Positions 3,663 through 26,920 of a stretch of 32,000 bases of DNA are shown here, one piece after another. The notes under the pieces are model-generated. The model was not told the origin of the DNA, did not search any database, and worked only from the letters and a program-made list of their open reading frames with translations. The translations under genes and the position numbers were made by a program. Every line of letters begins with the position of its first letter. The stretch's first letter is position 1. This DNA comes from Promethearchaeota archaeon (lineage in GTDB: Archaea; Asgardarchaeota; Lokiarchaeia; Sigyniarchaeales; Promethearchaeaceae), in NCBI GenBank assembly GCA_016933055.1, contig JAFGBS010000028.1, positions 180,001-212,000 of the forward strand, given 5' to 3'.

Positions 3663-3729
3663 CTCATAATCTATTAATTTAATTTTTATCAATTAATTTC
3701 ATATCCTATACTTCCATTTTTGGTAAATA

Positions 3730-4932: not shown

Positions 4933-4979
4933 AATTACCTAGTCCTAAGAGATCATACATATTCATAATAGGATTTTTT

Positions 4980-5567: not shown

Positions 5568-6472
5568 TCTCGTAGAAATTTTCCCATTACAAAATCTTTC
5601 CAGTCCCTTCCAATCATAAAAACTCCTAATAATAACAAAAACAATCCTGTCACTTTATCTAGGTAATTCCAGATGCCCTCTGCGTTAAGAACTAATAAAA
5701 TACCTCCAATTGTAAGTAACATACCAATGAAAGTTTCGTGCAGATGAATTTTTTTAATATAAATTCGTTTGAATCCTGTTGCAGCAAGAGATTTTATGAA
5801 ATCTGGACAGCGAAGTAAAAAATATACCAGAAGAAAGGTGACACTTGCATTTATAATGAAATAGGCTTCATCTGTACTCAAATAATTCGCGTAGTATACA
5901 GAGGAAAATGCAAATGGGGAAATTCTGAAAAACACCCAAAGAATGCTTAGAATTGAAAGAAGTGCTCCAACATTGGCAATTTTTAAAATTATTTTAAATA
6001 CACCCTTTCGTCGATATAAATCTTCCAAGGAGTAAAAACCAGTTTTGGGAACGAACTTTTCAGGGTTATAAACTAAATTTCCTAATTCATCTTTCTCTGA
6101 ATTTACATGTAAGATATCATCATGGATGATTACAATATGAGTCAAATTTTCTTTATCTTTACGTTTTATGATGGAGTTATGCAGAAGCATCGAAAAAAAT
6201 GACGCTAGAAAAACTCCAATAATTATCAGGATAAAAATGACTCTGAATGTGTAATTGTATTTTATAGATAAATAAAATTCATCTAATTTATTATGATCTA
6301 TCCAACTTCCAGGACCGGGTATATAATGTCGCCAATTATCTCCAATACGCAAAATTGCATAAAGATATACTAGGAAAATTGCCGTAAACAACAATGTAAG
6401 ACCAACAGTCATAAATACTCGCGAAACAAATGATTTAGATCGGATCTGTTTATTAGGGATCTGAGTATCCAT
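5564..6472 (-). CDS. Hypothetical multi-pass membrane protein
   Basis: 302-aa ORF with about six hydrophobic segments. It starts 12 bp after the stop of the upstream KaiC-V4R gene. Confidence 0.8.
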   Translation of the reverse strand: MDTQIPNKQIRSKSFVSRVFMTVGLTLLFTAIFLVYLYAILRIGDNWRHYIPGPGSWIDHNKLDEFYLSIKYNYTFRVIFILIIIGVFLASFFSMLLHNSIIKRKDKENLTHIVIIHDDILHVNSEKDELGNLVYNPEKFVPKTGFYSLEDLYRRKGVFKIILKIANVGALLSILSILWVFFRISPFAFSSVYYANYLSTDEAYFIINASVTFLLVYFLLRCPDFIKSLAATGFKRIYIKKIHLHETFIGMLLTIGGILLVLNAEGIWNYLDKVTGLFLLLLGVFMIGRDWKDFVMGKFLRD

Positions 6473-6484
6473 TTAATCCACCAA

Positions 6485-7762
6485 TTAGACTAGTAGCAGC
6501 AAAATATTCAATGTTATAAAACCATTTTGCATATTACCTTGTTTTTTCATTTCGATATGTTTCACGTCGAATTTTAAGCTTTGGGACATAATTCCAGAAT
6601 AAAGTCCCTTCAGAATAGGACGATATATTTCTTCATCCAATTCTTCATGAAACGCATGAGTATACTCGATTATTTTTTGGGAGATGTCTTTTTTAATCAA
6701 TTTACTTTGACCCCATCCGAGTAAAGACCATATTCGTAAAGTAGTTTTAACTACTTCCCACCGATTAATCATATATAGTTTCTGAATAAATGCACTGAGA
6801 TCTGAACCTATTGTGAAGGCTGTTTGTTGAATAATAGTAGCATCTTTAATCTTTTTTAAGAAATGAATCCAGCTTTGGGTAGGAAGTAGTAAAAAGGGAA
6901 TATGAGAAAACTCTAAAGTCCCGTTTTCCCATTCCATTAAATTACGGAAAGCTTCGAATGTATTTAGAAAAGCAGATTTTATGATAACAGAATATTGCTC
7001 CGTTTGTTCATCAAACTGTATTTTATAAGGTTCTACGCGGTTATCGTGGGGATACTGCCCCACCATCTTTAGAACCCGAATATACTGTTGCTGATAAATT
7101 CCCTCAAATTTAGAACTCAAATCCACAACCACATGGCATAGTGATTGAATTTTTGCCAACATTTCAGATGGAACAATATCCTTATTCATTAACATTAGAT
7201 CACAAGACCCCGTATCACAGCATGATGTGAGATTACCTTCAATCAGTTGAATAACGTTAGAAACCGATAAATTAAGAATAAATGGATTTACACTAATTAA
7301 GATATTATATAATTGGATGGAAGGATCATTTTCATCAATGCGTCTTTGGTTTAAATAATCCATTGCTTTCTCTTTTGCATTTCGAATCTGAAGAGACAAT
7401 TCATGCCTATCGGTAAATAAATTTACATTCTGGACTCCCTTACTTACTAAATCAAGTATAATAAGGTTAGGATTTGGATAGACCTCTTGTATCGAAAGTA
7501 TCAAATTTCGCGAAATCATATCTGATAAAATAACCAGCACAACATTAGAAACTGAAATTTGATTTTCGATAATTTCTTTTAAAATTATTTCTCCTCCACT
7601 ACCAATATCTTGTTGAAATAAGGTCAAACTATTGCTTTGGAATCCCCCCCCAAGCATTTCATCCAATTCACGAATACCACTAGAAAAGAATCGCTTTTTC
7701 TCAAGGATTTTTCGTTTTTGAAGGGTCGAATCCGCTAGTTTTTCTTGAACTCGTCTACTCAT
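6485..7762 (-). CDS. Inactivated KaiC/RAD55-like ATPase fused to a V4R-like C-terminal domain
   Basis: SSGIRELDEMLGGGF is the RecA-superfamily KaiC/RAD55 start. Walker A is degenerate (DIGSGGE), and LCHVVVDL and VLKMVG correspond to DGVIEL and KMRG. The C-terminal region has GTLEFSHIPFLLLP, IGSDLS and LLGWGQ, as in V4R-type domains. Confidence 0.75.
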   Translation of the reverse strand: MSRRVQEKLADSTLQKRKILEKKRFFSSGIRELDEMLGGGFQSNSLTLFQQDIGSGGEIILKEIIENQISVSNVVLVILSDMISRNLILSIQEVYPNPNLIILDLVSKGVQNVNLFTDRHELSLQIRNAKEKAMDYLNQRRIDENDPSIQLYNILISVNPFILNLSVSNVIQLIEGNLTSCCDTGSCDLMLMNKDIVPSEMLAKIQSLCHVVVDLSSKFEGIYQQQYIRVLKMVGQYPHDNRVEPYKIQFDEQTEQYSVIIKSAFLNTFEAFRNLMEWENGTLEFSHIPFLLLPTQSWIHFLKKIKDATIIQQTAFTIGSDLSAFIQKLYMINRWEVVKTTLRIWSLLGWGQSKLIKKDISQKIIEYTHAFHEELDEEIYRPILKGLYSGIMSQSLKFDVKHIEMKKQGNMQNGFITLNILLLLV

Positions 7763-8310
7763 GGTATTTGACTTCCTTTTATTTTATTAAGCACATCCAT
7801 GGAAATTTCTTCAAATACTTGGTCCATATTGGTTCCTGTTTTTGCTGAAGTAATATAAAATCGTATGTTTGGATTTTCTGGACGTAATTGTTTTGTAAGA
7901 TCCATGGCAATTACTTCGATGTTAGGATTATAATCAAGATCACATTTGTTACCGATTATCGATATAGGTACGGTCTTTCCCAATACACGAGTAACATCCA
8001 TATACCAATCACGGATATGCAGTAATGAGGATTTGTTGGTTAAGTCGAATAATAGAAGCACACCTTGAGCCCCATTCAAGTAATTAGAGCGTACAGTCGC
8101 CCATAAAGTCTGGCCTCCAATATCCCAAATTGTCATGATTACCTCCTTAGTTTGACCACAAATATCCACACGCATTGTTTTTCCTTTGAAGTCCACACCT
8201 ATTGTTGAAAGATAGTTTTCCTTGAAATATCCTTCTGTATAATGCCGAACCAATGAAGTTTTTCCAACCGAGGGGTCTCCTAAGATACAGACTTTTATTT
8301 TCATAGCCAT
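7759..8310 (-). CDS. Rab/Ras-like small GTPase
   Basis: G1 GDPSVGKTS, G2 STIGVDF, G3 WDIGGQ, G4 NKCD, G5 TSAK. No C-terminal cysteine. The stop overlaps the next start (ATGA). Confidence 0.95.
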   Translation of the reverse strand: MAMKIKVCILGDPSVGKTSLVRHYTEGYFKENYLSTIGVDFKGKTMRVDICGQTKEVIMTIWDIGGQTLWATVRSNYLNGAQGVLLLFDLTNKSSLLHIRDWYMDVTRVLGKTVPISIIGNKCDLDYNPNIEVIAMDLTKQLRPENPNIRFYITSAKTGTNMDQVFEEISMDVLNKIKGSQIP

Positions 8311-8373
8311 TTTATTCTACCTTCATCGTGATATTTCCCAATAAGTGCTATATTCGATCCATCCTACTTTAAT

Positions 8374-8494
8374 CTATGAGTTTTTAGGTTGGAATTCATT
8401 ATAGCTAGCAATCGGAATAAAACAGATCCATATGATTAATCTCATGGACTAGATTTATATGGATCTACTTGATTATCAACTCATAGGATATCCT
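8374..8494. repeat. Nested inverted repeats and a palindrome in a divergent intergenic region
   Basis: CTATGAGTT (8374-8382) / AACTCATAG (8478-8486) enclose AGATCCATAT (8424-8433) / ATATGGATCT (8457-8466). A perfect palindrome AGGATATCCT lies at 8485-8494. Confidence 0.5.
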
Positions 8495-8520
8495 TAATTT
8501 ATAATAAACGGGGCAACAAA

Positions 8521-9213
8521 ATGCCAAAAAACGCGAAAGCTCAAGAGAAATTGGAAAACATAATTATTTCTTTACGGGACGGTCTTAGTGAATTCGCTTC
8601 TCTAATAGAAGATATAAATAAATCCAGTTCTATGTTGCTGAAATTGTTCAGTAAAACCGAAAAAGAACTCAAAAGCATAAAATTGGACCGAGGGACCCAT
8701 GCTGTAACATCAACAGCAACACCAGCTGCACCTATTGTTGGAATTAAATCTGGACAAGATGCTCGCGAAAAAGCCGCTAATTTATTGTTTAACATGCTAT
8801 CAGGAGGAACAAGTGGAGCAGAATCACCGGCAACTTCAACGGTTTCTGCACATCCTTCAAGCCCCCCCTTAAGATCGGGGCCTCCTAGCTCATCATCGGG
8901 TCCTCCGGGTAGACCCCCCTCAGCACCCCCAAGTGCTCCTGCAAAATCTCCTTCTGGATTACCCCCTCCTCCAAAATTACCTCCTAAAGCTCCAGGGATA
9001 CCAACACCGGGTGTATCAACTCAGCCTTCATTTATGAAAGCTCCTCCTGGAATGAGTCCACCTCCCTCAAAACCTGGAGCACCTATGACCGCAGGATCTC
9101 CTCCCGCAGCTCCAGTAGCAGCTGGAGGTGGAGGTGGAGCTGGATTATCCTCTTTACGAGATGAAATGTTAAAAGAATTAGATCGTCTTAAGAAAATCAT
9201 GAAAGGCGGCTAA
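8521..9213 (+). CDS. Coiled-coil / proline-rich protein with a C-terminal amphipathic helix (WH2-, VASP- or MIM1-like)
   Basis: N-terminal heptad-like helix, a long Pro/Ser/Ala/Gly linker (LPPPP and multiple PxxP), a Gly5 hinge, then LSSLRDEMLKELDRLKKIMKGG. Confidence 0.8.
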   Translation: MPKNAKAQEKLENIIISLRDGLSEFASLIEDINKSSSMLLKLFSKTEKELKSIKLDRGTHAVTSTATPAAPIVGIKSGQDAREKAANLLFNMLSGGTSGAESPATSTVSAHPSSPPLRSGPPSSSSGPPGRPPSAPPSAPAKSPSGLPPPPKLPPKAPGIPTPGVSTQPSFMKAPPGMSPPPSKPGAPMTAGSPPAAPVAAGGGGGAGLSSLRDEMLKELDRLKKIMKGG

Positions 9214-9240
9214 AGAATCCTAATTTTTTTTAAATTCTTT
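9214..9240 (+). terminator. Possible archaeal oligo-T terminator
   Basis: T8 run (9224-9231) just after the stop, flanked by AAAGAAT/ATTCTTT. Confidence 0.35.
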
Positions 9241-9446
9241 ATCTTTTATCTATAGAGTTAAACCACAAGAATTCGTTATTTAGGCGTGTAATTATATGTT
9301 TTGAATACTAAAAAGTAATTTGAGTCAAATTTGTCTTTCATTTAGATAGATTTGTATTAAGGTTTGACTAATTCTCGTTTATCTATATTTAGATTTTTCA
9401 TTATTAAAAGGTGAATATTTTATAATCTTGTGCCTAAGCATAAGAT

Positions 9447-10064
9447 ATGGTAGAATTCGAAAATGAGGAATTCATATTTCGTATGATTTTAATTGGCATC
9501 TATTCGATTTTTACCATAATAAGAATTCGATATAGACGAATCGCGAAAAACAACGGTGTTATTAAGGAAAAAGATAATGCTACCCAAAAATTGCTGTTTG
9601 CCATGATGGCTTATGAGGTTTTGACTTTTATTGCTTTTGTGTTTTTGTACAATTGGATTCCATGGGAAATAGCTCATATTCCCTTTCCTTTATGGCTCAG
9701 ATGGATGGGATTACCATTAGGTCTAGGCGCTATCGTGTATTTTATCATAGTCCATGAAGCTTTGGGAAAGAATTTCTCTCCTAAGCTGCGTATCAAAAAG
9801 GAACAAACACTCATTACTCATGGTCCTTACAAACACATACGTCATCCAATGTATGTAGCGTTTTTTCTCCTTCATCTAGCAGTATTTTTCATCGTAGCGA
9901 ATTGGATCATTGGGATTTCATGGAATATTTTTTTGTTCACAATTATTGCTATTCGTGTAAAACCTGAAGAAAAACTAATGATCGAGCGTTTTGGTAAGGA
10001 ATATGAAGAATACATAGAAAGAACAAGAAGATTTTTACCCATAAAGAAGAAAACAAGAATCTGA
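9447..10064 (+). CDS. Isoprenylcysteine carboxylmethyltransferase (ICMT/Ste14/PEMT)-family membrane methyltransferase
   Basis: Five or six transmembrane segments, LITHGPYKHIRHPMY, EEKLMIERFGKEYEEY, RRFLP. Confidence 0.9.
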   Translation: MVEFENEEFIFRMILIGIYSIFTIIRIRYRRIAKNNGVIKEKDNATQKLLFAMMAYEVLTFIAFVFLYNWIPWEIAHIPFPLWLRWMGLPLGLGAIVYFIIVHEALGKNFSPKLRIKKEQTLITHGPYKHIRHPMYVAFFLLHLAVFFIVANWIIGISWNIFLFTIIAIRVKPEEKLMIERFGKEYEEYIERTRRFLPIKKKTRI

Positions 10065-18611: not shown

Positions 18612-19124
18612 TTGATTAAAATTGCAGATATAACAAATATAGAGGAAAGAAAGGCGATAGAGAATATAATTCGCAATTATAGGGAGGATAGTGGAACCGT
18701 TATCAGTCTTCTTCAAGATATCCAAGGACACTATAATTATTTACCCGCTTATATTTTACAACTCCTTTCACGAGAGCTGAAAATACCACTATCAAAAATC
18801 TATAGCGTTGCAACTTTTTACGCTCAATTTTCGTTTAACGAAAAAGGGAAACATATTATCACTGTGTGTGATGGTACCGCGTGTCACGTGAAAGGAGGAC
18901 CACTATTATACGACTATCTCATCAACCAACTAGGAATCCATGGGGGTGAAACTACTCCGGACAAAATATTCAGCATAGAAATTGTTCGCTGCTTAGGTTG
19001 TTGCGCTATAAGTCCCGTAATGATTGTTGATGATGAGCTTTATGGTAATTTAAATATGCAAAAAATTAGTAAAATTTTAAGCAAAATTCGTAAAGAGGAA
19101 ATGATTCAGGAGGGTTCTAAATGA
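18612..19124 (+). CDS. NuoE/HydC(BfuC)-like thioredoxin-fold [2Fe-2S] subunit
   Basis: LLQDIQGHYNYLP, VATFYAQF, VCDGTACHVKG, RCLGCCAISP. Confidence 0.93.
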   Translation: MIKIADITNIEERKAIENIIRNYREDSGTVISLLQDIQGHYNYLPAYILQLLSRELKIPLSKIYSVATFYAQFSFNEKGKHIITVCDGTACHVKGGPLLYDYLINQLGIHGGETTPDKIFSIEIVRCLGCCAISPVMIVDDELYGNLNMQKISKILSKIRKEEMIQEGSK

Positions 19125-20914
19125 TTATAAAACCCCGCGAACTTTGGATATGCCGCAGTACTGGATGTAATTCCCTAAACGCAAAGGCAGTCCATGATGA
19201 GTTAGTGAAGCAAATAAAAGAACGTAGATTAACCCAAATAGAAGTAAAAAAAGTGGGTTGTATGGGGCTGTGTCAGTGTGGCCCTAGTATACTCATACAA
19301 CCAGATAATGTTTATTATGTGCATTTAAAACCGAAACATATTCCCGAAATTATTGAGAAGCATCTATTAAAAGATCAAATCGTGCAACATCTAGCCTATC
19401 TAAATCAAGAAACTGAGGAATTTATTCCTAATAAGGAGAACATTCCATATTATAACAGACAAAGGAAAATAACTCTAAAAAATAGCGGAACGATCGATCC
19501 AGAAAATATTGATGAGTATATCCGTATTGGTGGGTATGAAAATATTGAAAAATGCCTTAAAAAATATAAACCCTCTGAAGTAATACAAATAATTAAAAAT
19601 TCCCGATTAAGAGGTCGTGGAGGGGCGGGATTTCCTACGGGATTAAAATGGGAGCTTTGTGCCAAAGAAATAAACGATACAAAATATGTGATTTGCAATG
19701 GAGATGAGGGAGATCCGGGAGCATTTATGGATGACATACTAATGGAAAGTGACCCACATAGCGTTATTGAAGGTATGTGTGTTGGAGGGTATGCAATTGG
19801 AGCTCATCAAGGTTATATTTATATTCGAGCTGAATATGCACTGGCAATAAAACGATTCGATATAGCACTAAAACAAGCTCGAATGAAGGGTTTTTTAGGA
19901 AGAAACATTCACGGGTCAGGATTTGACTTCGATATTCAATTAAAAAAAGGTGCTGGAGCATTTGTGTGTGGAGAAGAAACTGCTTTAATGGCATCGATAG
20001 AAGGCAAGAGGGGCACTCCTCGACCTCGACCCCCATTTCCTGCACAATCAGGACTTTGGGGTAAACCCACGAATATAAATAACGTTAAAACCTGGGCAAC
20101 TATACCTCATATTTTGTCAATGGGTGCTGATTCGTATTCGAAAATTGGAACAGAAGATGCCTCTGGAACAATAATTCTAGCCCTTACAGGGAAGATCAAT
20201 AATTCAGGGCTAGTTGAGATTCCAATGGGAACTACAATCCGAGAGGTTGTATTTGATATAGGAGGAGGAATCCCTCATGGCAAAAAATTTAAGGCTATCC
20301 AAATTGGTGGACCCTCTGGAGGATGTATTCCAGCAGAACATCTCGATACGGTCATGGATTATAAAAATTTGACCTCACTTGGAGCAATTATGGGTTCTGG
20401 AGGAGTTATTGTTTTGGATGAAGATACTTGCATGGTAGATCTCGCCCATTATTTCATTACATTTACGCAACGGGAATCTTGTGGAAAATGTGCCCCTTGT
20501 CGAATTGGAACCCTAAAAATGTTAAATTTACTAACTAAATTTAAAAATGGAGTAGCAAAAATGGAGGATATTGACGAACTAGAACATCTCGCTGATATTG
20601 TAAAGAAGACATCCCTCTGTGGATTAGGTCAAACCGCTCCAAATCCGGTGCTAACAACAATTCGGTACTTTAGAGATGAATATGAAGCACATGTGAATGG
20701 AAGCTGCCCTGCCTTAGTATGTAAGGATCTTATCCGTTATGAAATAATCCCTACAAAATGTGTCGGTTGTCAATTTTGTGCTAAAAACTGTCCCGTTCAT
20801 GCAATCAGCGGGGAAATCAAACAAGCACATATGATAGATTCAAATTTATGCATAAGATGCGGACTGTGTGTAGTGCAATGTCCCAGTGATGCTATTCGAA
20901 AAGTTGGGATGTGA
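19121..20914 (+). CDS. NuoF/HydB(BfuB)-like FMN/NAD(H) subunit with an N-terminal [2Fe-2S] domain and a C-terminal 2x[4Fe-4S] domain
   Basis: ICRSTGC...GCMGLCQCGP, RGRGGAGFPTGLKW, DEGDPGAFMD, GAFVCGEETAL, GGPSGGC, ESCGKCAPCR...LCGLG, EAH...CPALVC, CVGCQFCAKNCP, CIRCGLCVVQCP. Confidence 0.95.
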   Translation: MIIKPRELWICRSTGCNSLNAKAVHDELVKQIKERRLTQIEVKKVGCMGLCQCGPSILIQPDNVYYVHLKPKHIPEIIEKHLLKDQIVQHLAYLNQETEEFIPNKENIPYYNRQRKITLKNSGTIDPENIDEYIRIGGYENIEKCLKKYKPSEVIQIIKNSRLRGRGGAGFPTGLKWELCAKEINDTKYVICNGDEGDPGAFMDDILMESDPHSVIEGMCVGGYAIGAHQGYIYIRAEYALAIKRFDIALKQARMKGFLGRNIHGSGFDFDIQLKKGAGAFVCGEETALMASIEGKRGTPRPRPPFPAQSGLWGKPTNINNVKTWATIPHILSMGADSYSKIGTEDASGTIILALTGKINNSGLVEIPMGTTIREVVFDIGGGIPHGKKFKAIQIGGPSGGCIPAEHLDTVMDYKNLTSLGAIMGSGGVIVLDEDTCMVDLAHYFITFTQRESCGKCAPCRIGTLKMLNLLTKFKNGVAKMEDIDELEHLADIVKKTSLCGLGQTAPNPVLTTIRYFRDEYEAHVNGSCPALVCKDLIRYEIIPTKCVGCQFCAKNCPVHAISGEIKQAHMIDSNLCIRCGLCVVQCPSDAIRKVGM

Positions 20915-20918
20915 TACT

Positions 20919-23900
20919 ATGAAAATAATCATTGATCAGCACGAATTGGAATTTACTGAGGGTGAAACGATATTACAAATCGCAAAACGAAATGAAATTT
21001 ATATTCCAACATTATGCAATTTAGAAGATTTGACACCTTACGGAGGTTGCAGACTTTGTATTGTGAGGATTCTAAATGATCGGAAACCTTTCCAAACGGC
21101 ATGTTCGACCCCCGCAATCAAGGACATGGAGGTAATCACAAAAGATGAAGAACTTCAAGAAATGCGTCGAGAGGTACTTCAATTGATCTTAAGCGAACAT
21201 CCCTCGGGGTGTTTAGTATGTGCTCATCACTCTATATGCGAAGAACTTCTAAAGGAAGACCGTCAAAAATCTGGAAGGGTATTCGGATGTTTTTCATGCC
21301 CTAAGAAGGATATTTGCGAATTAAGAGAAATAGTGGAATATTTGGGAATTAACAAAATTGATTATGAATTCGAGTATAAGAATTATCCCCTAGAACGTGA
21401 AGATCCCTTTTTTGATCGTGATTATAATTTATGCATCCTATGTGGTCGATGTATTCGTGTATGCAATGAAATGAGAGGTATTGGAGCAATAAATTTTATG
21501 TACCGCGGTCATGATACCAAGATATCCACGGGAGGAAACGTCCTTCACATTGATTCCAATTGTTTGTTCTGTGGAGCGTGTGTAGACACATGTCCTACAG
21601 GAGCCCTTTCCTCAAAAAATACCAAATGGGTAAAAACCAAAAATAACAAAACTACTTCTATTTGTACTTTCTGTAGCGTGGATTGTGGATTCGATTATTA
21701 TACATTAGAAGAAAAATTGATGGAATCTATTCCTTCTAAGGGAGATCTGGTTAACAAAGGTCAAGCTTGTGTTATTGGAAGATTTTGTACTCCTCATTTT
21801 GTAAATAGCAAGAGCCGATTAAAATACCCCATGATTAGAAAAGATGATATTTTAATTCCGTGTAAATGGGATGAGGCATATGAAACTATTAGGAACAAAC
21901 TAAGTCTCTATAATTCCGATGAAATTGCTTTGATAGCCTCTCCTGATTTAACAAATGAATCAGCTTATTTGCTTAAGAAATTTGGGAATGAAGTCTTATC
22001 AACACCTCATATTGTCCAAGCTACCAACTTTATTCCATTTTTTACGGATAAAGATCAATCATTTAATGATATTCCCCATACTCAATGGATTTTACTATTA
22101 AATACAAATATCCAGATAACTCATCCAATCCTCTTGATACGTTTAAAGCAAGCAAGGGATAACGGAGCAAAAATTTTATCTCTTAATATTGGAAATGTTG
22201 AACTACCTTATGAAACACGTAATTTATTTGATATCGAATTAAATGTTCCAGTTCAAGATGCTACTTCCATTCTCGTTGCCATGCTAGGAACTCAAAATAA
22301 GCTTCTTTTACGAGATTTAGGATTAAAAATAGACGAAAAAGTACTAGAACGGTATAATTTAGCAGATTTTGTGGAGATGCGACGATATCAGAGAGGGACC
22401 ATACTTATGGGAAATTACGTTAATCTGCCTCCTTTATACATGAATAATTTGCAGAAGCTTATCATGCGGCTTGCTAGGGAGGGGGAGAGTCAAATTAGCT
22501 GTATAGGGCTATGGAATCACGGAAATCTCAATGGAGTCTCTAAATTCATTCCACAAACCTTGGATAAGATTACAGAAAAAATCGCTTCAGGAGATATTAA
22601 GGCAATCTTCACAACAGAACGCTTAAGTAACATTAATACCCAAAAAACTGAACTTTTAATCGTCCAAGATATGTTTGAGTCTAAATTTTCCAAAAATGCA
22701 GATATTGTTTTGCCCGTAGCTAGTCCTACAGAACAATCGGGACATGTAACCAATGCAGAAATGCAAAACAGAAGACTAATTGAAGTAGCACCCCCTATTG
22801 GTCATTCCAAACCCGATTGGCTTGTGTTAACAGAGCTTGCAAGAGTGTTTCAATTAACTGACAGATTCAAATATATCAATTCGGAGGAAATATATGAAGA
22901 GAGCCTGGATTTACAAATGGAATCTACCGACATCGATTTAGATTTTAAAGATATAAAAAAGTTAACATTAGAAGAACTTCCTCTGAATCATTTTACTTTG
23001 AGGGATTTCACATATCGTGGGCAATCTTTTTCTCATCTAGTTCCTAATCTTCAATTTTTAATTAACCAAAGAGAAGGAAAACTTGAGGAAGCGAAATTCA
23101 ATCAAGTAGAAAAAACAGAAGCGACCGAGTTTAAGGTTGTTCACATAGAAGAAAAAGTTCCGAATATGTTCAAACTGGTGGTTCATGCACCATTATTAGC
23201 TAACAAATCGCGTCCTGGTAATTTTGCAATCATCATGACCGAGGAAACCAGTGAACGTGTCCCCATTACTTTATCTGACTGGGATTCAGAAAAGGGAACT
23301 GTAACATTTTTCTTCCAAGAACGAGGTTTTTCAACTAAGGAATTGTCTGAAGTAAAGAGTGGAGATTATCTTCATAGCGTCGTAGGACCTCTAGGAAATC
23401 CCATCGAAATTGAGAAGAATAAAACTTTACTTCTTGGTGGAGGTTGCTACGGGATGGGTGCTTTATATCCGGTTGCTAAAGCTGCAAAAGAAATAGGAAA
23501 CAAGGTCATAATGATCATGGAGGGTAAATCCAAGGATCTTTTATATTTGCAGAAAGAATACGAACAACTTGTGGATAAAGTCGTATATATAACTTCTGAT
23601 GGCTCATACGGGCATAAGGGTTCTGAACATGGCAAGATAGCTACAGGCATTGAAGTAGTAGCACAAACTGAAAATGTAGATGTAGCATATTTTGTGGGAT
23701 GCGAGATGATGATGATGGAAGCATCGCAGATGACAGAAAAATTAGGAATTCCTACATTTGTGAGTTTGAACACGATCATGCTAGATGGAACGGGCATGTG
23801 TGGGGCTTGTCGATTAACAATAAATGAAAATGGTCACCGTATCACGAAATTTGCATGTGTAGATGGGCCTGTTTTCGATGGACATAAAATAGACTGGGAT

Positions 23901-24008
23901 GAATTAATGAAGCGAGGGGTTCAATTTAGTCACAAAGAAGTGGAAGTATATCGAGCTAATGCATGCAGAGCATTGACAAAATTTAACTTAAAACAGGAGG
24001 AATCTTAA
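20919..24008 (+). CDS. Fusion of a NuoG/FdhA/HydA-like Fe-S subunit (degenerate molybdopterin domain) with a C-terminal NfnA/SudB-like FAD/[2Fe-2S] domain
   Basis: IPTLC...GGCRLC...TAC, HPSGCLVC, CILCGRCIRVC, CLFCGACVDTCP, CTFCSVDC...C. From about 23130 the sequence is NfnA-like: SERVPITL, VVGPLGNP, MLDGTGMCGACR...FACVDGP. ATG 20919 follows the upstream stop by 4 bp. Confidence 0.9.
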   Translation: MKIIIDQHELEFTEGETILQIAKRNEIYIPTLCNLEDLTPYGGCRLCIVRILNDRKPFQTACSTPAIKDMEVITKDEELQEMRREVLQLILSEHPSGCLVCAHHSICEELLKEDRQKSGRVFGCFSCPKKDICELREIVEYLGINKIDYEFEYKNYPLEREDPFFDRDYNLCILCGRCIRVCNEMRGIGAINFMYRGHDTKISTGGNVLHIDSNCLFCGACVDTCPTGALSSKNTKWVKTKNNKTTSICTFCSVDCGFDYYTLEEKLMESIPSKGDLVNKGQACVIGRFCTPHFVNSKSRLKYPMIRKDDILIPCKWDEAYETIRNKLSLYNSDEIALIASPDLTNESAYLLKKFGNEVLSTPHIVQATNFIPFFTDKDQSFNDIPHTQWILLLNTNIQITHPILLIRLKQARDNGAKILSLNIGNVELPYETRNLFDIELNVPVQDATSILVAMLGTQNKLLLRDLGLKIDEKVLERYNLADFVEMRRYQRGTILMGNYVNLPPLYMNNLQKLIMRLAREGESQISCIGLWNHGNLNGVSKFIPQTLDKITEKIASGDIKAIFTTERLSNINTQKTELLIVQDMFESKFSKNADIVLPVASPTEQSGHVTNAEMQNRRLIEVAPPIGHSKPDWLVLTELARVFQLTDRFKYINSEEIYEESLDLQMESTDIDLDFKDIKKLTLEELPLNHFTLRDFTYRGQSFSHLVPNLQFLINQREGKLEEAKFNQVEKTEATEFKVVHIEEKVPNMFKLVVHAPLLANKSRPGNFAIIMTEETSERVPITLSDWDSEKGTVTFFFQERGFSTKELSEVKSGDYLHSVVGPLGNPIEIEKNKTLLLGGGCYGMGALYPVAKAAKEIGNKVIMIMEGKSKDLLYLQKEYEQLVDKVVYITSDGSYGHKGSEHGKIATGIEVVAQTENVDVAYFVGCEMMMMEASQMTEKLGIPTFVSLNTIMLDGTGMCGACRLTINENGHRITKFACVDGPVFDGHKIDWDELMKRGVQFSHKEVEVYRANACRALTKFNLKQEES

Positions 24009-25435
24009 TGACCGAGCCACAATCCAAAAAAACAACTCGAAAGAAAAAAGTAATACTCCCAAGACACAAAATTCCAGAGCAAGATCCTTTCCTTAGATCA
24101 AAGAATTTTGATGAAGTAAACCTGGGATATGCCCCAGAGATGGCACAAGCAGAGGCTTCTAGGTGCTTACAATGCCCTAAACCGGCATGTAGAGAAGGCT
24201 GTCCTGTGAATGTTGATATACCTGGATTTATAAAACTAATTATCGAAGGCAATTTTATCGAAGCTTCCCATCACATAAAAGAAACAAATGCACTTCCAGC
24301 AATTTGCGGCCGAGTATGTCCTCAAGAAACTCAATGTGAGGGGGTTTGTGTCCTCGGTAAGTCTTCTAAATATAAACCAGTAGCAATAGGTAACTTAGAG
24401 CGTTTTGTTGCAGATGCTGAACGGGCTACTAAGGCTTGCTATATCTGCGAAAAGGATCCCCCTACAGGTAAAAAGGTGGCTATAATTGGTTCTGGACCAG
24501 CGGGTTTAACAGTAGCTGGAGACTTAATTAAAAAAGGTCATGAAGTGCATATATTCGAAGCCTTTCATAAGGGAGGAGGTGTTTTAGTTTATGGCATCCC
24601 CGAATTTCGACTACCAAAGGAAATTGTAAACTGGGAAATCCAAGAACTGTTGGAAAATGGGGTTGAAATGCATTATAACACAGTAGTGGGCAAACTCCTC
24701 ACCGTAGAGGATCTGAAGAAACAAAATTTTGACGCTATTTTTATCGGAATCGGTGCGGGATTACCACTTTTCATGGGAATTCCTGGTGAGAATCTCAAAG
24801 GAGTGGTATCCGCTAATGAATATCTCACTCGATCGAATTTGATGAAGTCTTATGATTTTCCAAATTATAAAACTCCTCCTTTACAAGGAAAAAAAGTAGT
24901 AGTAGTCGGTGGGGGTAACGTAGCAATGGATTCAGCACGAACCGCGTTAAGATTAGAATCAGAAACGGTAACAATTGTGTATCGACGTGCAATGGAGCAA
25001 CTACCCGCTCGAGTAGAAGAGGTTCATCATGCACAAGAGGAGGGTGTAATTTTCAATTTACTAACCAATCCTGTTAGATTTATCGGAGATGCGACAGGAC
25101 GTCTTCAAGAAGTAGAAGTCTTAAAAATGAAACTTGGGGAACCAGATTCTTCTGGAAGGGCGCGTCCTATACCGATTGAAGGCTCCGAATTTCAAATTCC
25201 GTGCGATTTAGCAATTATTGCAATAGGTAATAATTCGAATCCGCTATTGACTTCAACAATGCCAGATCTAAAATTGAACAAATGGGGCAATATTATCACA
25301 GATGAAAACGGAGCCACTAATCTTCCGGGTATTTATGCGGGAGGAGACATAGTTACAGGTGCTGCGACAGTAATTTCCGCTATGGGGGAAGCTCGACGCG
25401 CTGCGAAAGCCATACATGAATTTTTAAGAAAATAA
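24008..25435 (+). CDS. nfnB: NfnB/SudA (GltD-like) NADP(H) flavoprotein with 2x[4Fe-4S]
   Basis: RSKNFDEVNLGY, RCLQCPKPACREGCP, ICGRVCPQETQCEGVC, IGSGPAGL, YGIPEFRLPK, GGGNVAMD, YRR, GGDIVTGAATVISAMG. The start overlaps the upstream stop (TAATG). Confidence 0.9.
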   Translation: MTEPQSKKTTRKKKVILPRHKIPEQDPFLRSKNFDEVNLGYAPEMAQAEASRCLQCPKPACREGCPVNVDIPGFIKLIIEGNFIEASHHIKETNALPAICGRVCPQETQCEGVCVLGKSSKYKPVAIGNLERFVADAERATKACYICEKDPPTGKKVAIIGSGPAGLTVAGDLIKKGHEVHIFEAFHKGGGVLVYGIPEFRLPKEIVNWEIQELLENGVEMHYNTVVGKLLTVEDLKKQNFDAIFIGIGAGLPLFMGIPGENLKGVVSANEYLTRSNLMKSYDFPNYKTPPLQGKKVVVVGGGNVAMDSARTALRLESETVTIVYRRAMEQLPARVEEVHHAQEEGVIFNLLTNPVRFIGDATGRLQEVEVLKMKLGEPDSSGRARPIPIEGSEFQIPCDLAIIAIGNNSNPLLTSTMPDLKLNKWGNIITDENGATNLPGIYAGGDIVTGAATVISAMGEARRAAKAIHEFLRK

Positions 25436-25610: not shown

Positions 25611-26729
25611 CTACAATCCAAATAAGTTAATTGACTTTTCCATTTTTTGCAATATTGGAACATTAAATGGACATCGAGACACGCATTCTCCACATTTTAC
25701 ACAATCGGAAGCTTTGGATTCCAGCATTGAATATTGCATTCTCACACTTTCAACATTTGTATATAAAGCTCTATCGTATAAACGGAAAACCTCCCCAATA
25801 TCAATTTTTTGTGGACATGGAGAACAATGATTACAATACACACACTGACCTTCTCGATATTCTTTGAATGATTTCAGAACTTCAGCATAATCCTTTTCCT
25901 CATCAGAAGCTGAATTGTAGGCAAGAACTTGATTTAATTCACCTAAATTTTTTACACCTGGCAACGCAATAGCTAAACCCGGTTGGGAAAGCACATAATG
26001 TAGACATTGAATGGGAGATATGGAAGTTTTAATGGTCTTCTTTAGACCTTTCGAGCCGCGCTGATAGCCTGCTATATTCACAGAACCTTGCATAAGTAAT
26101 CTCCCTCCCGCGAATGGTTTCATCGCAATTACACCGACATTGTGTTGAGCGCAAATCGCAAGAGCTCGGTTCCGATTTTCCATCCCATTATTGGCTAAAT
26201 TTATTTGAAACATAATAACATCGCAAACCCCTTTTTGTGCGGCTTGGATGGCTACATTAGCGTCATGAGTACTCATACCAATGAATTGTATTCTTCCAAG
26301 TTCCTGAAACTCTCGTGCTAAATCAAAAACTCCATTCTCTTGACAGCATTGTTCGAATTGCTTTTCATTCATTACAAAATGAACCATACCGATATCTGCA
26401 TAATCAGTACCTAAAATATTAGTATAACGGTCAAAATTTCGAATAATTTTTCCTAAACTTCTTGTTTTTCGATATTTTCCTTCATGCTCCCCCGAACCGA
26501 GATGGTGTGTTAATATTAAATTTTCTCGATTAAGGTCCTTAATCGCATGCCGAATATTCTGCAAAAAAGGTTCAAAATTATACACAAGATCGAAATAATT
26601 TATACCTTGATCGAATGCATTGTTAATTACAGCATGCACTAATTCTCGGGGTTGATTGTTCAACCATTCGCATCCCAATCCTATTCTACTTACCTTAAGA
26701 GCTGTTTTTCCAAGAATAGAATAATCCAT
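25611..26729 (-). CDS. Aldo/keto reductase with a C-terminal 4Fe-4S dicluster
   Basis: LGKTALKVSRIGLG, GINYFD, IGMSTH, AMKPFAGG, CVYCNHCSPCP, CVKCGECVSRCP. ATG 26729 is preferred. Confidence 0.92.
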   Translation of the reverse strand: MDYSILGKTALKVSRIGLGCEWLNNQPRELVHAVINNAFDQGINYFDLVYNFEPFLQNIRHAIKDLNRENLILTHHLGSGEHEGKYRKTRSLGKIIRNFDRYTNILGTDYADIGMVHFVMNEKQFEQCCQENGVFDLAREFQELGRIQFIGMSTHDANVAIQAAQKGVCDVIMFQINLANNGMENRNRALAICAQHNVGVIAMKPFAGGRLLMQGSVNIAGYQRGSKGLKKTIKTSISPIQCLHYVLSQPGLAIALPGVKNLGELNQVLAYNSASDEEKDYAEVLKSFKEYREGQCVYCNHCSPCPQKIDIGEVFRLYDRALYTNVESVRMQYSMLESKASDCVKCGECVSRCPFNVPILQKMEKSINLFGL

Positions 26730-26920
26730 AGGAAACAAATAGCTATGACATTTTTTAATGAATTCTTATGAATTTTAAAACAATGAGTAAACTCAATATT
26801 CTGAGCAATGAGATTACTCTAATAATTATTTTTTTCTCCCATAAAAACATCAACAACTATTGTGAAGAATTTTATTTTACTATCCACATTCTCTTAATAA
26901 AGAATTTCAAGGTCGGAAAA

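What the first reader, a model, noticed from the sequence alone, without database searches (positions are those of the whole stretch)
18612..25435. Hybrid oxidoreductase joining a HydABC/Bfu-type module to NfnAB: two candidate bifurcation centres in one complex
Seen: four tightly coupled genes (ATGA overlap, 4-bp gap, TAATG overlap): NuoE-like, NuoF-like, NuoG-like fused to NfnA, and NfnB. The NuoF-like subunit has the extra N-terminal [2Fe-2S] and C-terminal 2x[4Fe-4S] domains and the GAFM / GAFVCG / GGPSG residues associated with bifurcating HydB. NfnA keeps the Asp-ligated DGTGMCGAC...C cluster. Known: HydABC/Bfu (FMN) and NfnAB (FAD in NfnB) are separate bifurcation classes. Stn/NfnABC-type transhydrogenases attach a GltD-like domain to the NuoG subunit but do not include NfnA. 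Inference: a complex with two NAD(H) sites, one NADP(H) site and a ferredoxin site, possibly performing serial bifurcation. No hydrogenase, molybdopterin catalytic or membrane subunits are encoded here. I cannot confirm that the architecture is unreported.
Basis: partly seen in the sequence, partly recalled or inferred. Interest (0 to 1): 0.8.

Follow-up and report, generated by a model that had tools for sequence, protein, structure and literature searches.

The report
Bfu bifurcating core joined to NfnAB
An Asgard archaeon encodes, as one four-gene operon, a soluble iron-sulfur flavoenzyme that joins a complete NfnAB transhydrogenase to the core of the unrelated HydABC/Bfu bifurcating family; the combination is widespread in anaerobes, and I found no description of it in the papers I could search.

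Summary
Window 18612-25435 (+) holds four translationally coupled genes: BfuC (NuoE-like), BfuB (NuoF-like, with every bifurcation-type motif), BfuA (NuoG-like scaffold with a non-catalytic formate-dehydrogenase-like domain) fused to NfnA, and NfnB.

The fusion is not an assembly artefact. Dozens of independent assemblies carry it, and on the NfnA tree the fused forms fall in at least three separate clades. About 46 further Asgard species carry what appears to be the same unit unfused, in the order BfuC-BfuB-BfuA-NfnA-NfnB (5 of 5 checked).

This operon is the genome's only NuoF-, NuoG- and NfnB-type set. So it is most likely the cell's NADPH/NADH/ferredoxin balancer.

The main new point is that every Bfu-linked NfnA, fused or split, archaeal or bacterial, has a remodelled NAD(H) pocket. 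Five signature positions differ from canonical NfnA, while NfnB shows none.

Which end of the Nfn cofactor chain connects to BfuA is unresolved, so the stoichiometry is unknown.

This scan has met the same architecture on other DNA (for example e1-789911 and e1-2622145). The 2022 Bfu classification and an October 2026 paper do not list it. I rate it a new variant of a known kind.

The parts
18612..19124 (+). bfuC: NuoE/HydC-like [2Fe-2S] thioredoxin-like subunit, 170 aa, TTG start
   Evidence: PF01257 at 6e-46 over residues 16-159. NuoE/HoxE NCBIfam models match at about 1e-39 but below their cut-offs. The stop overlaps the bfuB start as ATGA.
19121..20914 (+). bfuB: NuoF/HydB-like FMN and NAD(H) subunit. 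It has an N-terminal [2Fe-2S] domain (aa 9-80), the FMN domain (158-329), NADH_4Fe-4S (440-524) and a C-terminal 2x[4Fe-4S] domain (542-595).
   Evidence: Pfam. It scores 797 bits against residues 7-597 of A. mobile NiFe-Bfu subunit B, 7t2r_B, nearly without gaps, and also matches 9n5u_B and 7q4v_B. Motifs GDPGAFMD and GAGAFVCGEE are present, as are the equivalents of B2 ligands C438/H525/C531/C536.
20919..21818 (+). BfuA iron-sulfur part of the fusion gene (aa 1-300): A1 [2Fe-2S], His-ligated A2, A3/A4 ferredoxin-like pair and A5 (Molybdop_Fe4S4). It includes a duplicated CxxCx5C motif (C124, C127, C133).
   Evidence: Pfam. The ligand columns C62, H94, C98, C101, C107, C124, C127, C133, C172-C182, C215-C225, C249-C256 and C284 are invariant in 28 fusion proteins. 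The duplication is visible in the alignments.
21819..22883 (+). Formate-dehydrogenase/NuoG-like domain of BfuA (aa ~301-655), non-catalytic
   Evidence: PF00384 is matched only in part (best stretch covers profile positions 1-143 of 353) and there is no PF01568 cap domain. TIGR01973 NuoG is matched to its end. Split relatives keep only about 220 residues here. A true FdhA in L001 has both domains complete.
22884..23123 (+). Junction segment (aa ~656-735) carrying the conserved YRG...V.DL..LI motif that ends BfuA, followed by a variable linker
   Evidence: R700 is invariant and G701, V708 and L711 are nearly so in the fusions. The same motif lies at the C-terminus of split BfuA proteins (Y496 R497 G498). 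The model has pLDDT below 50 at residues 722-732.
23124..24008 (+). NfnA/NfnS domain of the fusion gene (aa 736-1029, plus stop): FAD domain, remodelled NAD(H)-type domain and Asp/Cys3 [2Fe-2S]
   Evidence: Matches 5jca_S at 3.5e-65, 4ylf_A at 5.5e-62 and, more weakly, NfnII 5vj7_B at 2e-44. NF004862 at 5e-92. D956, C961, C964 and C980 are invariant.
23445..23702 (+). Signature positions of Bfu-linked NfnA inside the NAD(H) pocket: C843-Y844 (23445-23450), G847 (23457-23459), E868 (23520-23522) and C928 (23700-23702)
   Evidence: 30 of 30 Bfu-linked NfnA carry C, Y, G, E, C; canonical NfnA carry G, hydrophobic (some Cys/Thr), A/P, G/S, P. In a wider set the C-[YF]-[GA]-[ED]-C pattern tracks Bfu linkage. 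The positions fall in the loop after strand 836-841, at the end of strand 862-869 and just after strand 922-926 of the model.
24008..25435 (+). nfnB/nfnL: GltD-like subunit with 2x[4Fe-4S], FAD and an NADP(H) site, 475 aa
   Evidence: 541 bits to T. maritima NfnB 4ylf_B and 508 bits to P. furiosus NfnI-L 5jca_L. The CGRVCPQE..C..C motif and the EFRLPK arginine (Pfu R201) are conserved. TIGR01316 at 1.5e-178, above its cut-off.

Best explanation
The four genes most likely encode one soluble complex, an "NfnSL-Bfu" hybrid.

Composition:
- BfuC and BfuB form the HydBC/Bfu-type bifurcating core. It holds FMN, the NAD(H) site, the ferredoxin-side clusters and the B2 [2Fe-2S].
- BfuA is a five-cluster wire with a non-catalytic formate-dehydrogenase-like domain.
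- A complete Nfn unit stands in place of a third-substrate catalytic site. NfnA (FAD and an Asp-ligated [2Fe-2S]) is fused to the BfuA C-terminus. NfnB carries NADP(H), the FAD that bifurcates in canonical Nfn, and two [4Fe-4S] clusters.

Function: it is the cell's NADP(H)/NAD(H)/ferredoxin redox balancer and takes the place of stand-alone NfnAB.

My favoured wiring (inferred, about 40-45%) is as follows.
- The remodelled NAD(H) pocket of NfnA is no longer a free NAD(H) site. It has become the electron hand-over point between the NfnA FAD and the BfuA cluster chain.
- NAD(H) then binds only at BfuB.
- NADP(H) binds at NfnB.
- Ferredoxin binds at the distal cluster of NfnB and at BfuBC.

If both flavin centres bifurcate, this wiring gives NADH + 6 Fd(red) + 4 NADP+ <-> NAD+ + 6 Fd(ox) + 4 NADPH. 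That is a ferredoxin-rich gear. It would sit near equilibrium when the ferredoxin pool is only about -420 mV.

Shown: gene content, cofactor motifs, conservation, and linkage of the pocket signature to Bfu. Inferred: complex formation, wiring, stoichiometry and direction.
For: (1) Domains and motifs.

(2) BfuB has the bifurcation-type features defined in PMC9304861. It has extra N- and C-terminal cluster domains, B2 ligands, GDPGAFMD and GAGAFVCGE.

(3) NfnB is about 60% identical to T. maritima NfnB. It keeps the Glu-type CPQE cluster motif and the arginine that H-bonds flavin N5 (role of the arginine from PMC10482914). No column separates 12 Bfu-linked from 4 canonical NfnB.

(4) Physical coupling of BfuA and NfnA:
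- The fusion occurs in dozens of assemblies at 43-70% identity.
- It occurs in 16 of 400 Asgard species representatives and in several bacterial phyla.
- Fused forms fall in at least three separate clades of the NfnA tree.
- Split operons in the order BfuC-BfuB-BfuA-NfnA-NfnB were found in 5 of 5 Asgard loci checked and in many bacterial loci.
- A fold of a natural split pair, BfuA 522 aa with NfnA 289 aa, gave weak support only. The score was 0.54 against a best control of 0.01. The mark was reached by 58 of 80 solved complexes and 2 of 110 mismatched pairs, but scores of 0.60 or under were seen in only 7 of those 80 and in both passing mismatches. The runs agree in at least 87% of contacts and the partner's pLDDT is at least 80. 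My own alignments were used.

(5) Pocket remodelling: C843, Y844, G847, E868 and C928 are present in 30 of 30 Bfu-linked NfnA and in none of 7 canonical NfnA. In the wider set, 39 of 39 informative signature-bearing NfnA are fused to or adjacent to Bfu genes. 52 of 55 non-signature NfnA have no Bfu gene in the locus. T. maritima NfnA and P. furiosus NfnI-S have the canonical residues. The positions sit at the C-terminal edge of the Rossmann-like sheet.

(6) Functional replacement: this genome has no other NuoF-, NuoG- or NfnB-type gene. 46 of 62 Asgard genomes with a Bfu-type NfnA have no second NfnA match.
Against: - No biochemical or structural datum exists for any member.
- The tools give no coordinates, so no cofactor distances could be measured.
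- E868 is an acidic residue at the end of beta-2. In Rossmann-type domains such a residue usually binds the adenosine ribose of NAD or FAD (general knowledge of Rossmann-type nucleotide-binding domains). The pocket may therefore still bind a dinucleotide.
- With the usual physiological potentials (NAD -280, NADP -380, Fd -500 mV; PMC9304861), my favoured wiring is about 65 mV x 8 e- exergonic towards NADPH. That is wasteful for an energy-limited archaeon unless its ferredoxin pool is less reduced.
- A Dehalococcoidia operon (L043) is Bfu-linked but keeps a canonical pocket.
- Signature and linkage counts come from related sequences and are not independent events.
Confidence: 0.45

Rival explanations
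1. The low-potential branch of NfnB, its two [4Fe-4S] clusters, feeds the BfuA chain. NfnA still reduces or oxidises free NAD(H) at its altered pocket. The complex then has two NAD(H) sites and two bifurcating centres in series. The reaction is 4 NADPH + 3 NAD+ + 2 Fd(ox) <-> 4 NADP+ + 3 NADH + 2 Fd(red), an NADH-rich gear.
For: - In Stn/NfnABC the homologous GltD-type [4Fe-4S] pair is the route from the NADPH-FAD into the BfuA chain (PMC10482914).
- Electrons from the low-potential branch have enough driving force for the Bfu core. By my calculation from the potentials, the overall reaction is about 45 mV x 8 e- exergonic in the direction of NADPH oxidation. It approaches equilibrium if the NADH pool is more reduced.
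- E868 is compatible with dinucleotide binding.
- The FAD and [2Fe-2S] motifs of NfnA are intact.
Against: - It does not explain why exactly the NAD(H) pocket is remodelled wherever NfnA is linked to Bfu.
- NfnB, whose ferredoxin face would have to dock on BfuA, shows no linked signature.
- The domain that is fused to BfuA is NfnA, not NfnB.
Confidence: 0.28
2. A Stn-like enzyme with a single bifurcation site. Only the BfuBC core bifurcates. The NfnAB unit is merely another way to bring NADPH electrons into BfuA. The net reaction is the canonical 2 NADPH + NAD+ + 2 Fd(ox) <-> 2 NADP+ + NADH + 2 Fd(red).
For: - It gives the same net reaction as the enzymes it appears to replace (mutual exclusion). 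The same either/or pattern is reported for Nfn-Bfu and NfnAB in Thermococcaceae (PMC9304861).
- StnC shows that an NfnB-like domain can lose bifurcation while keeping the arginine.
- It is thermodynamically balanced.
Against: - NfnB here is indistinguishable from canonical, bifurcating NfnB. It has the Glu-type motif rather than the Lys of StnC.
- In NfnI the [2Fe-2S] and the NfnA FAD form a high-potential sink (established NfnSL mechanism, described in PMC13689815). That makes a poor entry into a chain at about -400 mV.
Confidence: 0.15
3. The remodelled pocket of NfnA serves a different third substrate or chemistry. One possibility is a flavin-adjacent Cys843/Cys928 dithiol reducing a disulfide or polysulfide. 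Another is an extra metal or iron-sulfur site ligated by Cys843, Cys928, Glu868 and a further residue.
For: - Two invariant new cysteines and an invariant carboxylate lie on adjacent loops of the sheet edge facing the flavin.
- Non-Cys cluster ligands are already typical of Nfn.
- P. furiosus NfnII has an occluded NAD site and an unknown partner "X" (PMC12221290).
Against: - Only two or three candidate ligands are family-specific. C1016 also occurs in some canonical NfnA.
- No thiol-substrate genes lie in the operon or its neighbourhood.
- This is pure inference from positions.
Confidence: 0.08
4. Two independent enzymes that are only co-transcribed: an orphan BfuABC and an ordinary NfnAB.
For: In many genomes NfnA is a separate gene. 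One Asgard locus has a canonical NfnAB pair just downstream (L030).
Against: - Fused forms fall in separate clades of the NfnA tree, and the window's own protein is a single 1029-aa chain.
- The NfnA signature is strictly tied to Bfu linkage.
- BfuABC alone would have no third-substrate site.
Confidence: 0.04

Closest known systems
StnABC / NfnABC (Nfn-Bfu, Type 1 Bfu): Sporomusa ovata 8oh5, Caldicellulosiruptor saccharolyticus 9bov, Thermococcus sibiricus 9n5u
   Same: - It has a HydBC-type bifurcating core (the BfuB here scores 746 bits to 9n5u_B).
- It has a NuoG-like A subunit with an inactive Fdh-like domain.
- It has a GltD/NfnB-type NADP(H)-FAD module with two [4Fe-4S] clusters.
- It has the same presumed physiological job, and it is mutually exclusive with NfnAB.
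   Different: - In Stn the GltD-like domain is inserted into the A subunit, near its N-terminus. There is no NfnA homologue, and the proximal cluster has a Lys ligand.
- Here NfnB is a separate, canonical Glu-type protein.
- Here a full NfnA (FAD and an Asp-ligated [2Fe-2S]) is fused to the C-terminus of BfuA.
NfnAB / NfnSL (T. maritima 4ylf/4yry, P. furiosus NfnI 5jca)
   Same: - NfnB scores 541 and 508 bits to these structures, with all cluster, FAD and arginine motifs.
- The NfnA domain matches at 3.5e-65 and 5.5e-62, with FAD-binding and Asp/Cys3 [2Fe-2S] motifs.
- The gene order nfnA then nfnB is the same.
   Different: - It is not a free heterodimer, because NfnA is the C-terminal domain of BfuA.
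- The NAD(H) pocket differs at five signature positions: GGGCYGxG against GGGVG(I/V)A, Glu against Gly at the end of beta-2, and VGC against VGP.
- It is linked to a second bifurcating family. [quoted passage not shown]
NiFe-Bfu (HydABCSL) of Acetomicrobium mobile, 7t2r
   Same: - It is the closest solved BfuB (797 bits, aligned nearly without gaps).
- Its BfuA is likewise a relative with a truncated Fdh-like domain.
- Its extra subunits feed BfuA, the Type 3 logic of PMC9304861.
   Different: Its extra module is a [NiFe] hydrogenase, not NfnAB, and it has no second flavin.
Class II benzoyl-CoA reductase BamBCDEFGHI (Geobacter metallireducens)
   Same: A HydBC/Bfu-type module (BamGHI) is coupled in one complex to a second, unrelated bifurcating flavin module. 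This is a precedent for two coupled bifurcation modules (bioRxiv 10.64898/2026.04.10.717634; proposed earlier in PMC9304861).
   Different: Its second module is HdrA-type, its end substrate is benzoyl-CoA at a tungsten cofactor, and it has eight subunits. It has no Nfn-type proteins and no NADP(H).

Membership tests
Bfu (HydABC-type) family: BfuBC core | BfuB carries, beyond the NuoF core cluster B1, an N-terminal [2Fe-2S] domain and a C-terminal 2x[4Fe-4S] domain | tested here: met
   PF01257 matches aa 9-80 and the Fer4 families match aa 542-595. All Cys align with 7t2r_B.
Bfu (HydABC-type) family: BfuBC core | B2 [2Fe-2S] ligands (A. mobile C438, H525, C531, C536) and the motifs GDPGAFMD / GAGAFVCGE that separate bifurcating from non-bifurcating homologues | tested here: met
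   The definition is in Supplementary Figs 9-10 of PMC9304861. The sequence shows DTCMVD, EAHV..SCPALVC, GDPGAFMD and GAGAFVCGEE.
Bfu (HydABC-type) family: BfuBC core | Activity requires NAD(H), ferredoxin and a third substrate together | not testable with these tools
   This needs purified enzyme.
Nfn-Bfu / Stn (Type 1 Bfu) | A GltD-like NADP(H) domain is part of the BfuA polypeptide, there is no NfnA homologue, and the proximal cluster is Lys-ligated | tested here: not met
   The GltD-like protein is a separate gene with the NfnB-type CPQE motif. An NfnA domain is present.
NfnAB / NfnSL | Large subunit with two [4Fe-4S] clusters (one Glu-ligated), FAD with the N5-contacting arginine, and an NADP(H) site | tested here: met
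   Alignments to 4ylf_B and 5jca_L. TIGR01316 scores above its cut-off.
NfnAB / NfnSL | Small subunit with FAD and an Asp/Cys3 [2Fe-2S] cluster | tested here: met
   ERVPIT, GPLG and DGTGMCGACR...C are aligned to 5jca_S and 4ylf_A and are invariant in the family.
NfnAB / NfnSL | The small subunit has the canonical NAD(H) pocket (GGGxG(I/V)A, Gly at the end of beta-2, VGP) | tested here: not met
   The window has GGGCYGMG, Glu868 and VGC928. These five positions separate all Bfu-linked NfnA from canonical NfnA. Whether NAD(H) still binds was not testable.
NfnAB / NfnSL | A stand-alone two-subunit enzyme | tested here: not met
   NfnA is the C-terminal domain of a 1029-aa BfuA protein in a Bfu operon.
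Formate dehydrogenase (FdhA/FdsA) | A complete molybdopterin domain plus a molybdopterin-dinucleotide-binding cap | tested here: not met
   PF00384 is matched only in part and there is no PF01568. Compare the true FdhA in L001.
Respiratory complex I N-module (NuoEFG) | Adjacent membrane and Q-module genes, and a NuoF without the extra clusters | tested here: not met
   The neighbours are arginyl-tRNA synthetase, deoxyhypusine synthase, an aldo/keto reductase and an ABC ATPase. NuoF carries the extra domains.

The most novel reading that the evidence does not exclude
Two bifurcating centres, the BfuBC flavin/cluster site and the NfnB FAD, act in series within one particle. This gives a "gear-shifted" transhydrogenase whose NADH:ferredoxin:NADPH stoichiometry differs from the canonical 1:2:2. 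It would be 1:6:4 if the NfnA FAD feeds BfuA, or 3:2:4 if the NfnB clusters do. In the first case the former NAD(H) pocket of NfnA has been converted into an electron-transfer site, possibly one that binds a metal or cluster.
Probability: 0.3. Interest if true: 0.85.

Novelty: new variant of a known kind. Interest (0 to 1): 0.7.

Why it matters
- Nfn and Bfu are treated as two separate, alternative solutions for balancing NADPH, NADH and ferredoxin in anaerobes. A natural, widespread complex that joins them would test whether bifurcating modules can be chained.
- It would also show whether organisms can change the ferredoxin cost of making NADPH, which bears on energy budgets of syntrophic and fermentative life near the thermodynamic limit.
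- It is the sole Nfn-type and sole Bfu-type enzyme in this Asgard genome, and the sole NfnA-type gene in about three quarters of the roughly 60 Asgard species that carry it. Metabolic reconstructions of the archaeal relatives of eukaryotes that score "NfnAB present" or "HydBC present" separately may therefore be misreading one enzyme as two.
- The five-residue pocket signature gives a simple sequence marker for the class, and a concrete mutagenesis target.

Tried and rejected
- Assembly artefact: rejected. An identical protein is on record, and homologous fusions occur in dozens of independent assemblies and fall in at least three tree clades.
- Catalytic formate dehydrogenase: rejected.
- F420-Bfu of Methanosaetaceae as the same thing: rejected. 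That class has an F420-dehydrogenase domain and a BfuA with only A1, A2 and A4. The Methanothrix loci L032 and L046 instead carry BfuA with an NfnA-like gene.
- A signature in NfnB that would mark a new docking face: none was found in 12 Bfu-linked against 4 canonical sequences. The canonical sample is small.
- C1016 as a family-specific ligand: rejected. It also occurs in canonical NfnA.
- The BfuA CxxCx5C duplication as an Nfn-specific adaptation: rejected. It is also present in the non-Nfn BfuA of Lokiarchaeum ossiferum.
- Conserved functional neighbours: none was found. The flanks differ between the window, L002 and L024.
- Literature: the Bfu classification, including its Supplementary Table 1, does not describe the architecture. 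Neither do the Nfn distribution review, the evolution survey, the Asgard papers, the archaeal fusion survey or the Hydrogenedentota Bfu paper. The library lacks most subscription journals.
- Cofactor distances: not obtainable, because the structure tools return no coordinates.

Full report
**1. Observation**

The region 18612-25435 holds four co-oriented ORFs.
- The first is a 170-aa NuoE-like protein with a TTG start.
- The second is a 597-aa NuoF-like protein.
- The third is a NuoG-like protein that runs on into an NfnA domain.
- The fourth is a 475-aa NfnB.

- ATGA overlap at 19121-19124.
- TGA, four bases, then ATG at 20912-20921.
- TAATG at 24006-24010.

The third gene therefore starts at 20919 and encodes 1029 residues. 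A protein of exactly this sequence is on record from a 354-kb contig.

The flanking genes are unrelated. They encode arginyl-tRNA synthetase and deoxyhypusine synthase upstream, and a convergent aldo/keto reductase with a ferredoxin domain downstream. The unit is a four-gene operon.

The source names of the best hits (Promethearchaeota, Lokiarchaeota, Helarchaeota, Thorarchaeota) place the genome among the Asgard archaea.

**2. What each protein is**

*BfuC.* It is a thioredoxin-like [2Fe-2S] protein (PF01257, 6e-46).

*BfuB.*
- It aligns to subunit B of the Acetomicrobium mobile NiFe-Bfu hydrogenase (7t2r_B) at 797 bits, nearly without gaps.
- It matches almost as well the B subunits of NfnABC (9n5u_B) and HydABC (7q4v_B, 8a6t_B, 7p5h_B).
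- It has the N-terminal [2Fe-2S] domain and the C-terminal 2x[4Fe-4S] domain.
- It has the equivalents of the B2-cluster ligands C438, H525, C531 and C536.
- It has the GDPGAFMD and GAGAFVCGE motifs.
- Schut et al. use these motifs to separate bifurcating Bfu enzymes from non-bifurcating NuoF, HoxF and FdsB (PMC9304861, Supplementary Figs 9-10; sequence).

*BfuA part of the fusion.*
- It keeps ligands for all five clusters A1-A5. They are invariant in 28 family members.
- Its formate-dehydrogenase-like domain is incomplete. PF00384 is matched only in part and the cap domain PF01568 is absent.
- Unfused relatives keep even less of this domain.
- It is therefore a scaffold, not a catalyst.

*NfnA domain (residues about 736-1029).*
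- It matches P. furiosus NfnI-S at 3.5e-65 and T. maritima NfnA at 5.5e-62.
- The FAD motifs and the Asp/Cys3 [2Fe-2S] motif are intact.

*NfnB.*
- It is about 60% identical to T. maritima NfnB (541 bits).
- It has the same CGRVCPQE..C..C cluster motif.
- It has the EFRLPK arginine (P. furiosus R201).
- This arginine H-bonds flavin N5 and is regarded as crucial for bifurcation (PMC10482914).

**3. The fusion is real, recurrent, and one form of a wider operon**

*Fused forms.*
- A full-length search returned dozens of fusion proteins of 820-1150 residues at 30-70% identity.
- They come from Asgard MAGs and from Deltaproteobacteria, Dehalococcoidia and Kiritimatiellae.
- Their loci show the same gene order.
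- One deltaproteobacterial operon adds a true FdhA.
- One bacterial operon sits among the DRTGG, HATPase and HydS-like genes that accompany HydABC operons.

*Distribution among Asgard archaea.* Figures are, a scan of 400 Asgard species representatives.
- 282 have an NfnA-like gene.
- 16, including this genome, have the long fused ORF.
- A further 46 have a roughly 290-residue NfnA of intermediate similarity (E-values from 1e-74 to 1e-87).

*Split forms.*
- I checked five of the 46 intermediate loci. All five lie in five-gene operons in the order BfuC-BfuB-BfuA-NfnA-NfnB.
- The same split operon occurs in other lineages. These are Aminicenantes, Eubacteriales, Bacteroidales, Syntrophorhabdus, Desulfobacterota, Ignavibacteria and Methanothrix.

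*NfnA tree.* It was built with the five signature residues masked.
- The Asgard fusions form one clade (13 rows, support 100) nested among Asgard split forms.
- A second fused clade is bacterial (6 rows, support 98).
- The fused protein of L024 sits in a third clade of split forms.
- Fusion therefore arose at least three times, unless fused genes later split. That argues that BfuA and NfnA touch.

*Fold of a natural split pair.* It gave only weak support.
- The score was 0.54 against a best control of 0.01.
- 58 of 80 solved complexes and 2 of 110 mismatched pairs reached the mark.
- Scores of 0.60 or under were seen in only 7 of those 80 solved complexes and in both mismatches that passed.
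- The runs agree in at least 87% of contacts, and the partner's pLDDT is at least 80.
- My own alignments were used.

**4. It replaces ordinary Nfn**

The window's genome is 3.76 Mb and 91% complete.
- It has no second NuoF-like or NuoG-like gene.
- Its only other GltD-like genes are 34% identical.
- Its only other NfnA-like hit is 27% identical.
- Of the 62 Asgard genomes with a Bfu-type NfnA, 46 show no other NfnA match at E <= 1e-25.

The same either/or pattern is reported for Nfn-Bfu and NfnAB in Thermococcaceae (PMC9304861). The physiological role is therefore most likely NADP(H)/NAD(H)/ferredoxin balancing.

**5. The NAD(H) pocket of Bfu-linked NfnA is remodelled**

- In 28 fusion proteins, C843, Y844, G847, E868 and C928 are invariant.
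- These five columns are the only ones that separate 30 Bfu-linked NfnA, fused or split, from 7 canonical NfnA.
- The canonical residues are Gly, a hydrophobic residue (Cys or Thr in some), Ala/Pro, Gly/Ser and Pro.
- T. maritima NfnA and P. furiosus NfnI-S carry the canonical residues.

The wider set comprises 99 NfnA domains.
- 44 carry the pattern C-[YF]-[GA]-[ED]-C.
  - 20 of these are fused to BfuA and 19 lie beside Bfu genes.
  - The other 5 lie on fragments too short to tell.
- 55 lack the pattern.
  - 52 of these have no Bfu gene within the fetched locus.
  - The three exceptions are L030 (a second, canonical pair), L043 and L058.
- These counts are not independent events, because the sequences are related.

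On the model (mean pLDDT 75.9) the five positions fall in three places.
- The loop after strand 836-841.
- The end of strand 862-869.
- Just after strand 922-926.

Together these form the C-terminal edge of the Rossmann-like sheet. From general knowledge of the ferredoxin-NADP reductase fold, that is where such modules bind the nucleotide.

NfnB shows no such discriminating column, although only 12 Bfu-linked and 4 canonical sequences were compared.

P. furiosus NfnII gives a precedent for an NfnA whose NAD site is occluded (PMC12221290).

I derived this signature before looking at earlier notes of this scan. Three first-stage notes on other genomes describe the same motif changes.

**6. How it may work**

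The Nfn cofactors form a line. This is the established NfnSL structure, as summarised in PMC10482914 and PMC13689815. The order along the line is as follows.
- Ferredoxin site.
- Distal [4Fe-4S].
- Proximal [4Fe-4S].
- NfnB FAD, with NADP(H).
- [2Fe-2S].
- NfnA FAD.
- NAD pocket.

BfuABC has no third-substrate site of its own, so one end of this line must reach the BfuA clusters. The stoichiometries and energies below are my own calculations. They use NAD -280, NADP -380 and Fd -500 mV.

| Wiring | Reaction | Energetics |
|---|---|---|
| Model B: the NfnA FAD connects to BfuA; NAD(H) binds only at BfuB | NADH + 6 Fd(red) + 4 NADP+ <-> 4 NADPH + NAD+ + 6 Fd(ox) | About 65 mV over 8 electrons towards NADPH; near equilibrium if the ferredoxin pool is about -420 mV |
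| Model A: the NfnB distal cluster connects to BfuA; NfnA still uses NAD(H) | 4 NADPH + 3 NAD+ + 2 Fd(ox) <-> 4 NADP+ + 3 NADH + 2 Fd(red) | About 45 mV over 8 electrons towards NADPH oxidation |
| Model C: only the Bfu core bifurcates | Canonical 2:1:2 | Balanced |

I favour model B at about 40-45%. The domain fused to BfuA is NfnA, and the pocket at that end of the line is precisely what changed with Bfu linkage, while NfnB did not change.

Model A gets about 28%. It is supported by the Stn precedent, where the homologous [4Fe-4S] pair is the entry into BfuA, and by Glu868, which would suit a dinucleotide ribose.

Model C gets about 15%. It sits poorly with an NfnB that looks fully canonical.

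None of this is shown. The tools returned no coordinates, so no cofactor distances could be measured.

**7. Comparison with what is known**

- The Bfu classification lists twelve activity classes. Nfn-Bfu appears there only as the three-subunit Type 1 form, with the GltD-like domain inside BfuA (PMC9304861, text and Supplementary Table 1).
- The Stn structure paper states that Stn has no NfnA homologue and Nfn has no HydBC homologue.
- The Nfn distribution review lists four fusion patterns, none with NuoG.
- Two coupled bifurcation modules in one complex are no longer unprecedented. Class II benzoyl-CoA reductase couples a HydBC-type module to an HdrA-type one.

I therefore file this as a new variant of a known kind. 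It is a Bfu enzyme whose accessory module is a whole NfnSL, and equally an Nfn whose small subunit is tied to a Bfu core.

Earlier follow-ups in this scan reached the same architectural reading on other genomes. Those are AI notes, not independent evidence.

**8. Limits**

- There is no biochemistry, no cofactor geometry and no expression data.
- The paper library lacks most subscription journals.
- The canonical comparison sets are small for NfnB.
- The genome scan did not return Asgard loci. Asgard counts rest.

Noticed in passing
window 21198-21317 (BfuA aa 94-133): The His-ligated cluster motif is duplicated. H94-x3-C98-x2-C101-x5-C107 is followed about 16 residues later by C124-x2-C127-x5-C133, and all of these are invariant in the family. 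The second copy is the one that aligns with the HydA CxxCx5C-KLQ motif. It is unclear which copy binds cluster A2 and what the other binds (a zinc ion or an extra cluster).
   Followed up: partly
L023 (Lokiarchaeum ossiferum CP104013.1, locus 3398-9919): A related Asgard Bfu operon ends in a BfuA with a C-terminal 2x[4Fe-4S] domain instead of NfnA. The order is HdrD-like CCG protein, BfuC, BfuB, BfuA. It sits beside HdrA-like and MvhD/FlpD genes. This may be a Bfu-Hdr type, and NCBI names the BfuA "periplasmic nitrate reductase".
   Followed up: no
L021 49-1926 and L022 2138-4000 (Asgard family f16; ORFs of 615-657 aa): This is a third NfnA architecture. A thioredoxin-reductase-like Pyr_redox_2 domain is fused to the N-terminus of an NfnA with a canonical pocket. 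In L022 an NfnB-like gene lies next to it.
   Followed up: partly
L047 2744-5977 (Hydrogenedentes) and L043 2900-5983 (Dehalococcoidia): BfuB is fused at its C-terminus to a GltD-like Fer4_20 + Pyr_redox_2 module, in place of the 2x[4Fe-4S] ferredoxin domain. The operon also has BfuA, NfnA and NfnB, so these complexes would carry two GltD-type flavin modules.
   Followed up: partly
L001 3336-6005 (Deltaproteobacteria MAG GCA_016782925.1): This bacterial operon inserts a complete FdhA, with full molybdopterin and cap domains, between BfuB and the BfuA::NfnA fusion. That suggests a formate-linked version with two NuoG-like subunits.
   Followed up: partly
L032 and L046 (Methanothrix MAGs), L108: A small separate clade of NfnA-like genes lies next to Bfu genes and carries the variant signature C-F-G-E-C. 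In L032 and L046 the adjacent gene is BfuA. On the tree this clade groups weakly with canonical NfnA, so the pocket change may have arisen twice.
   Followed up: partly
L030 9800-15998 (Asgard G087): One genome carries the Bfu-linked NfnAB and, about 1 kb downstream of it, a canonical NfnA with an NfnB that has a 130-residue Cys-rich N-terminal extension.
   Followed up: no
window 25611-26738 (-): A convergent gene encodes an aldo/keto reductase fused to a C-terminal 2x[4Fe-4S] ferredoxin-like domain. This is an unusual pairing next to the operon. It is not conserved beside the operon in the other loci examined (L002, L024).
   Followed up: no
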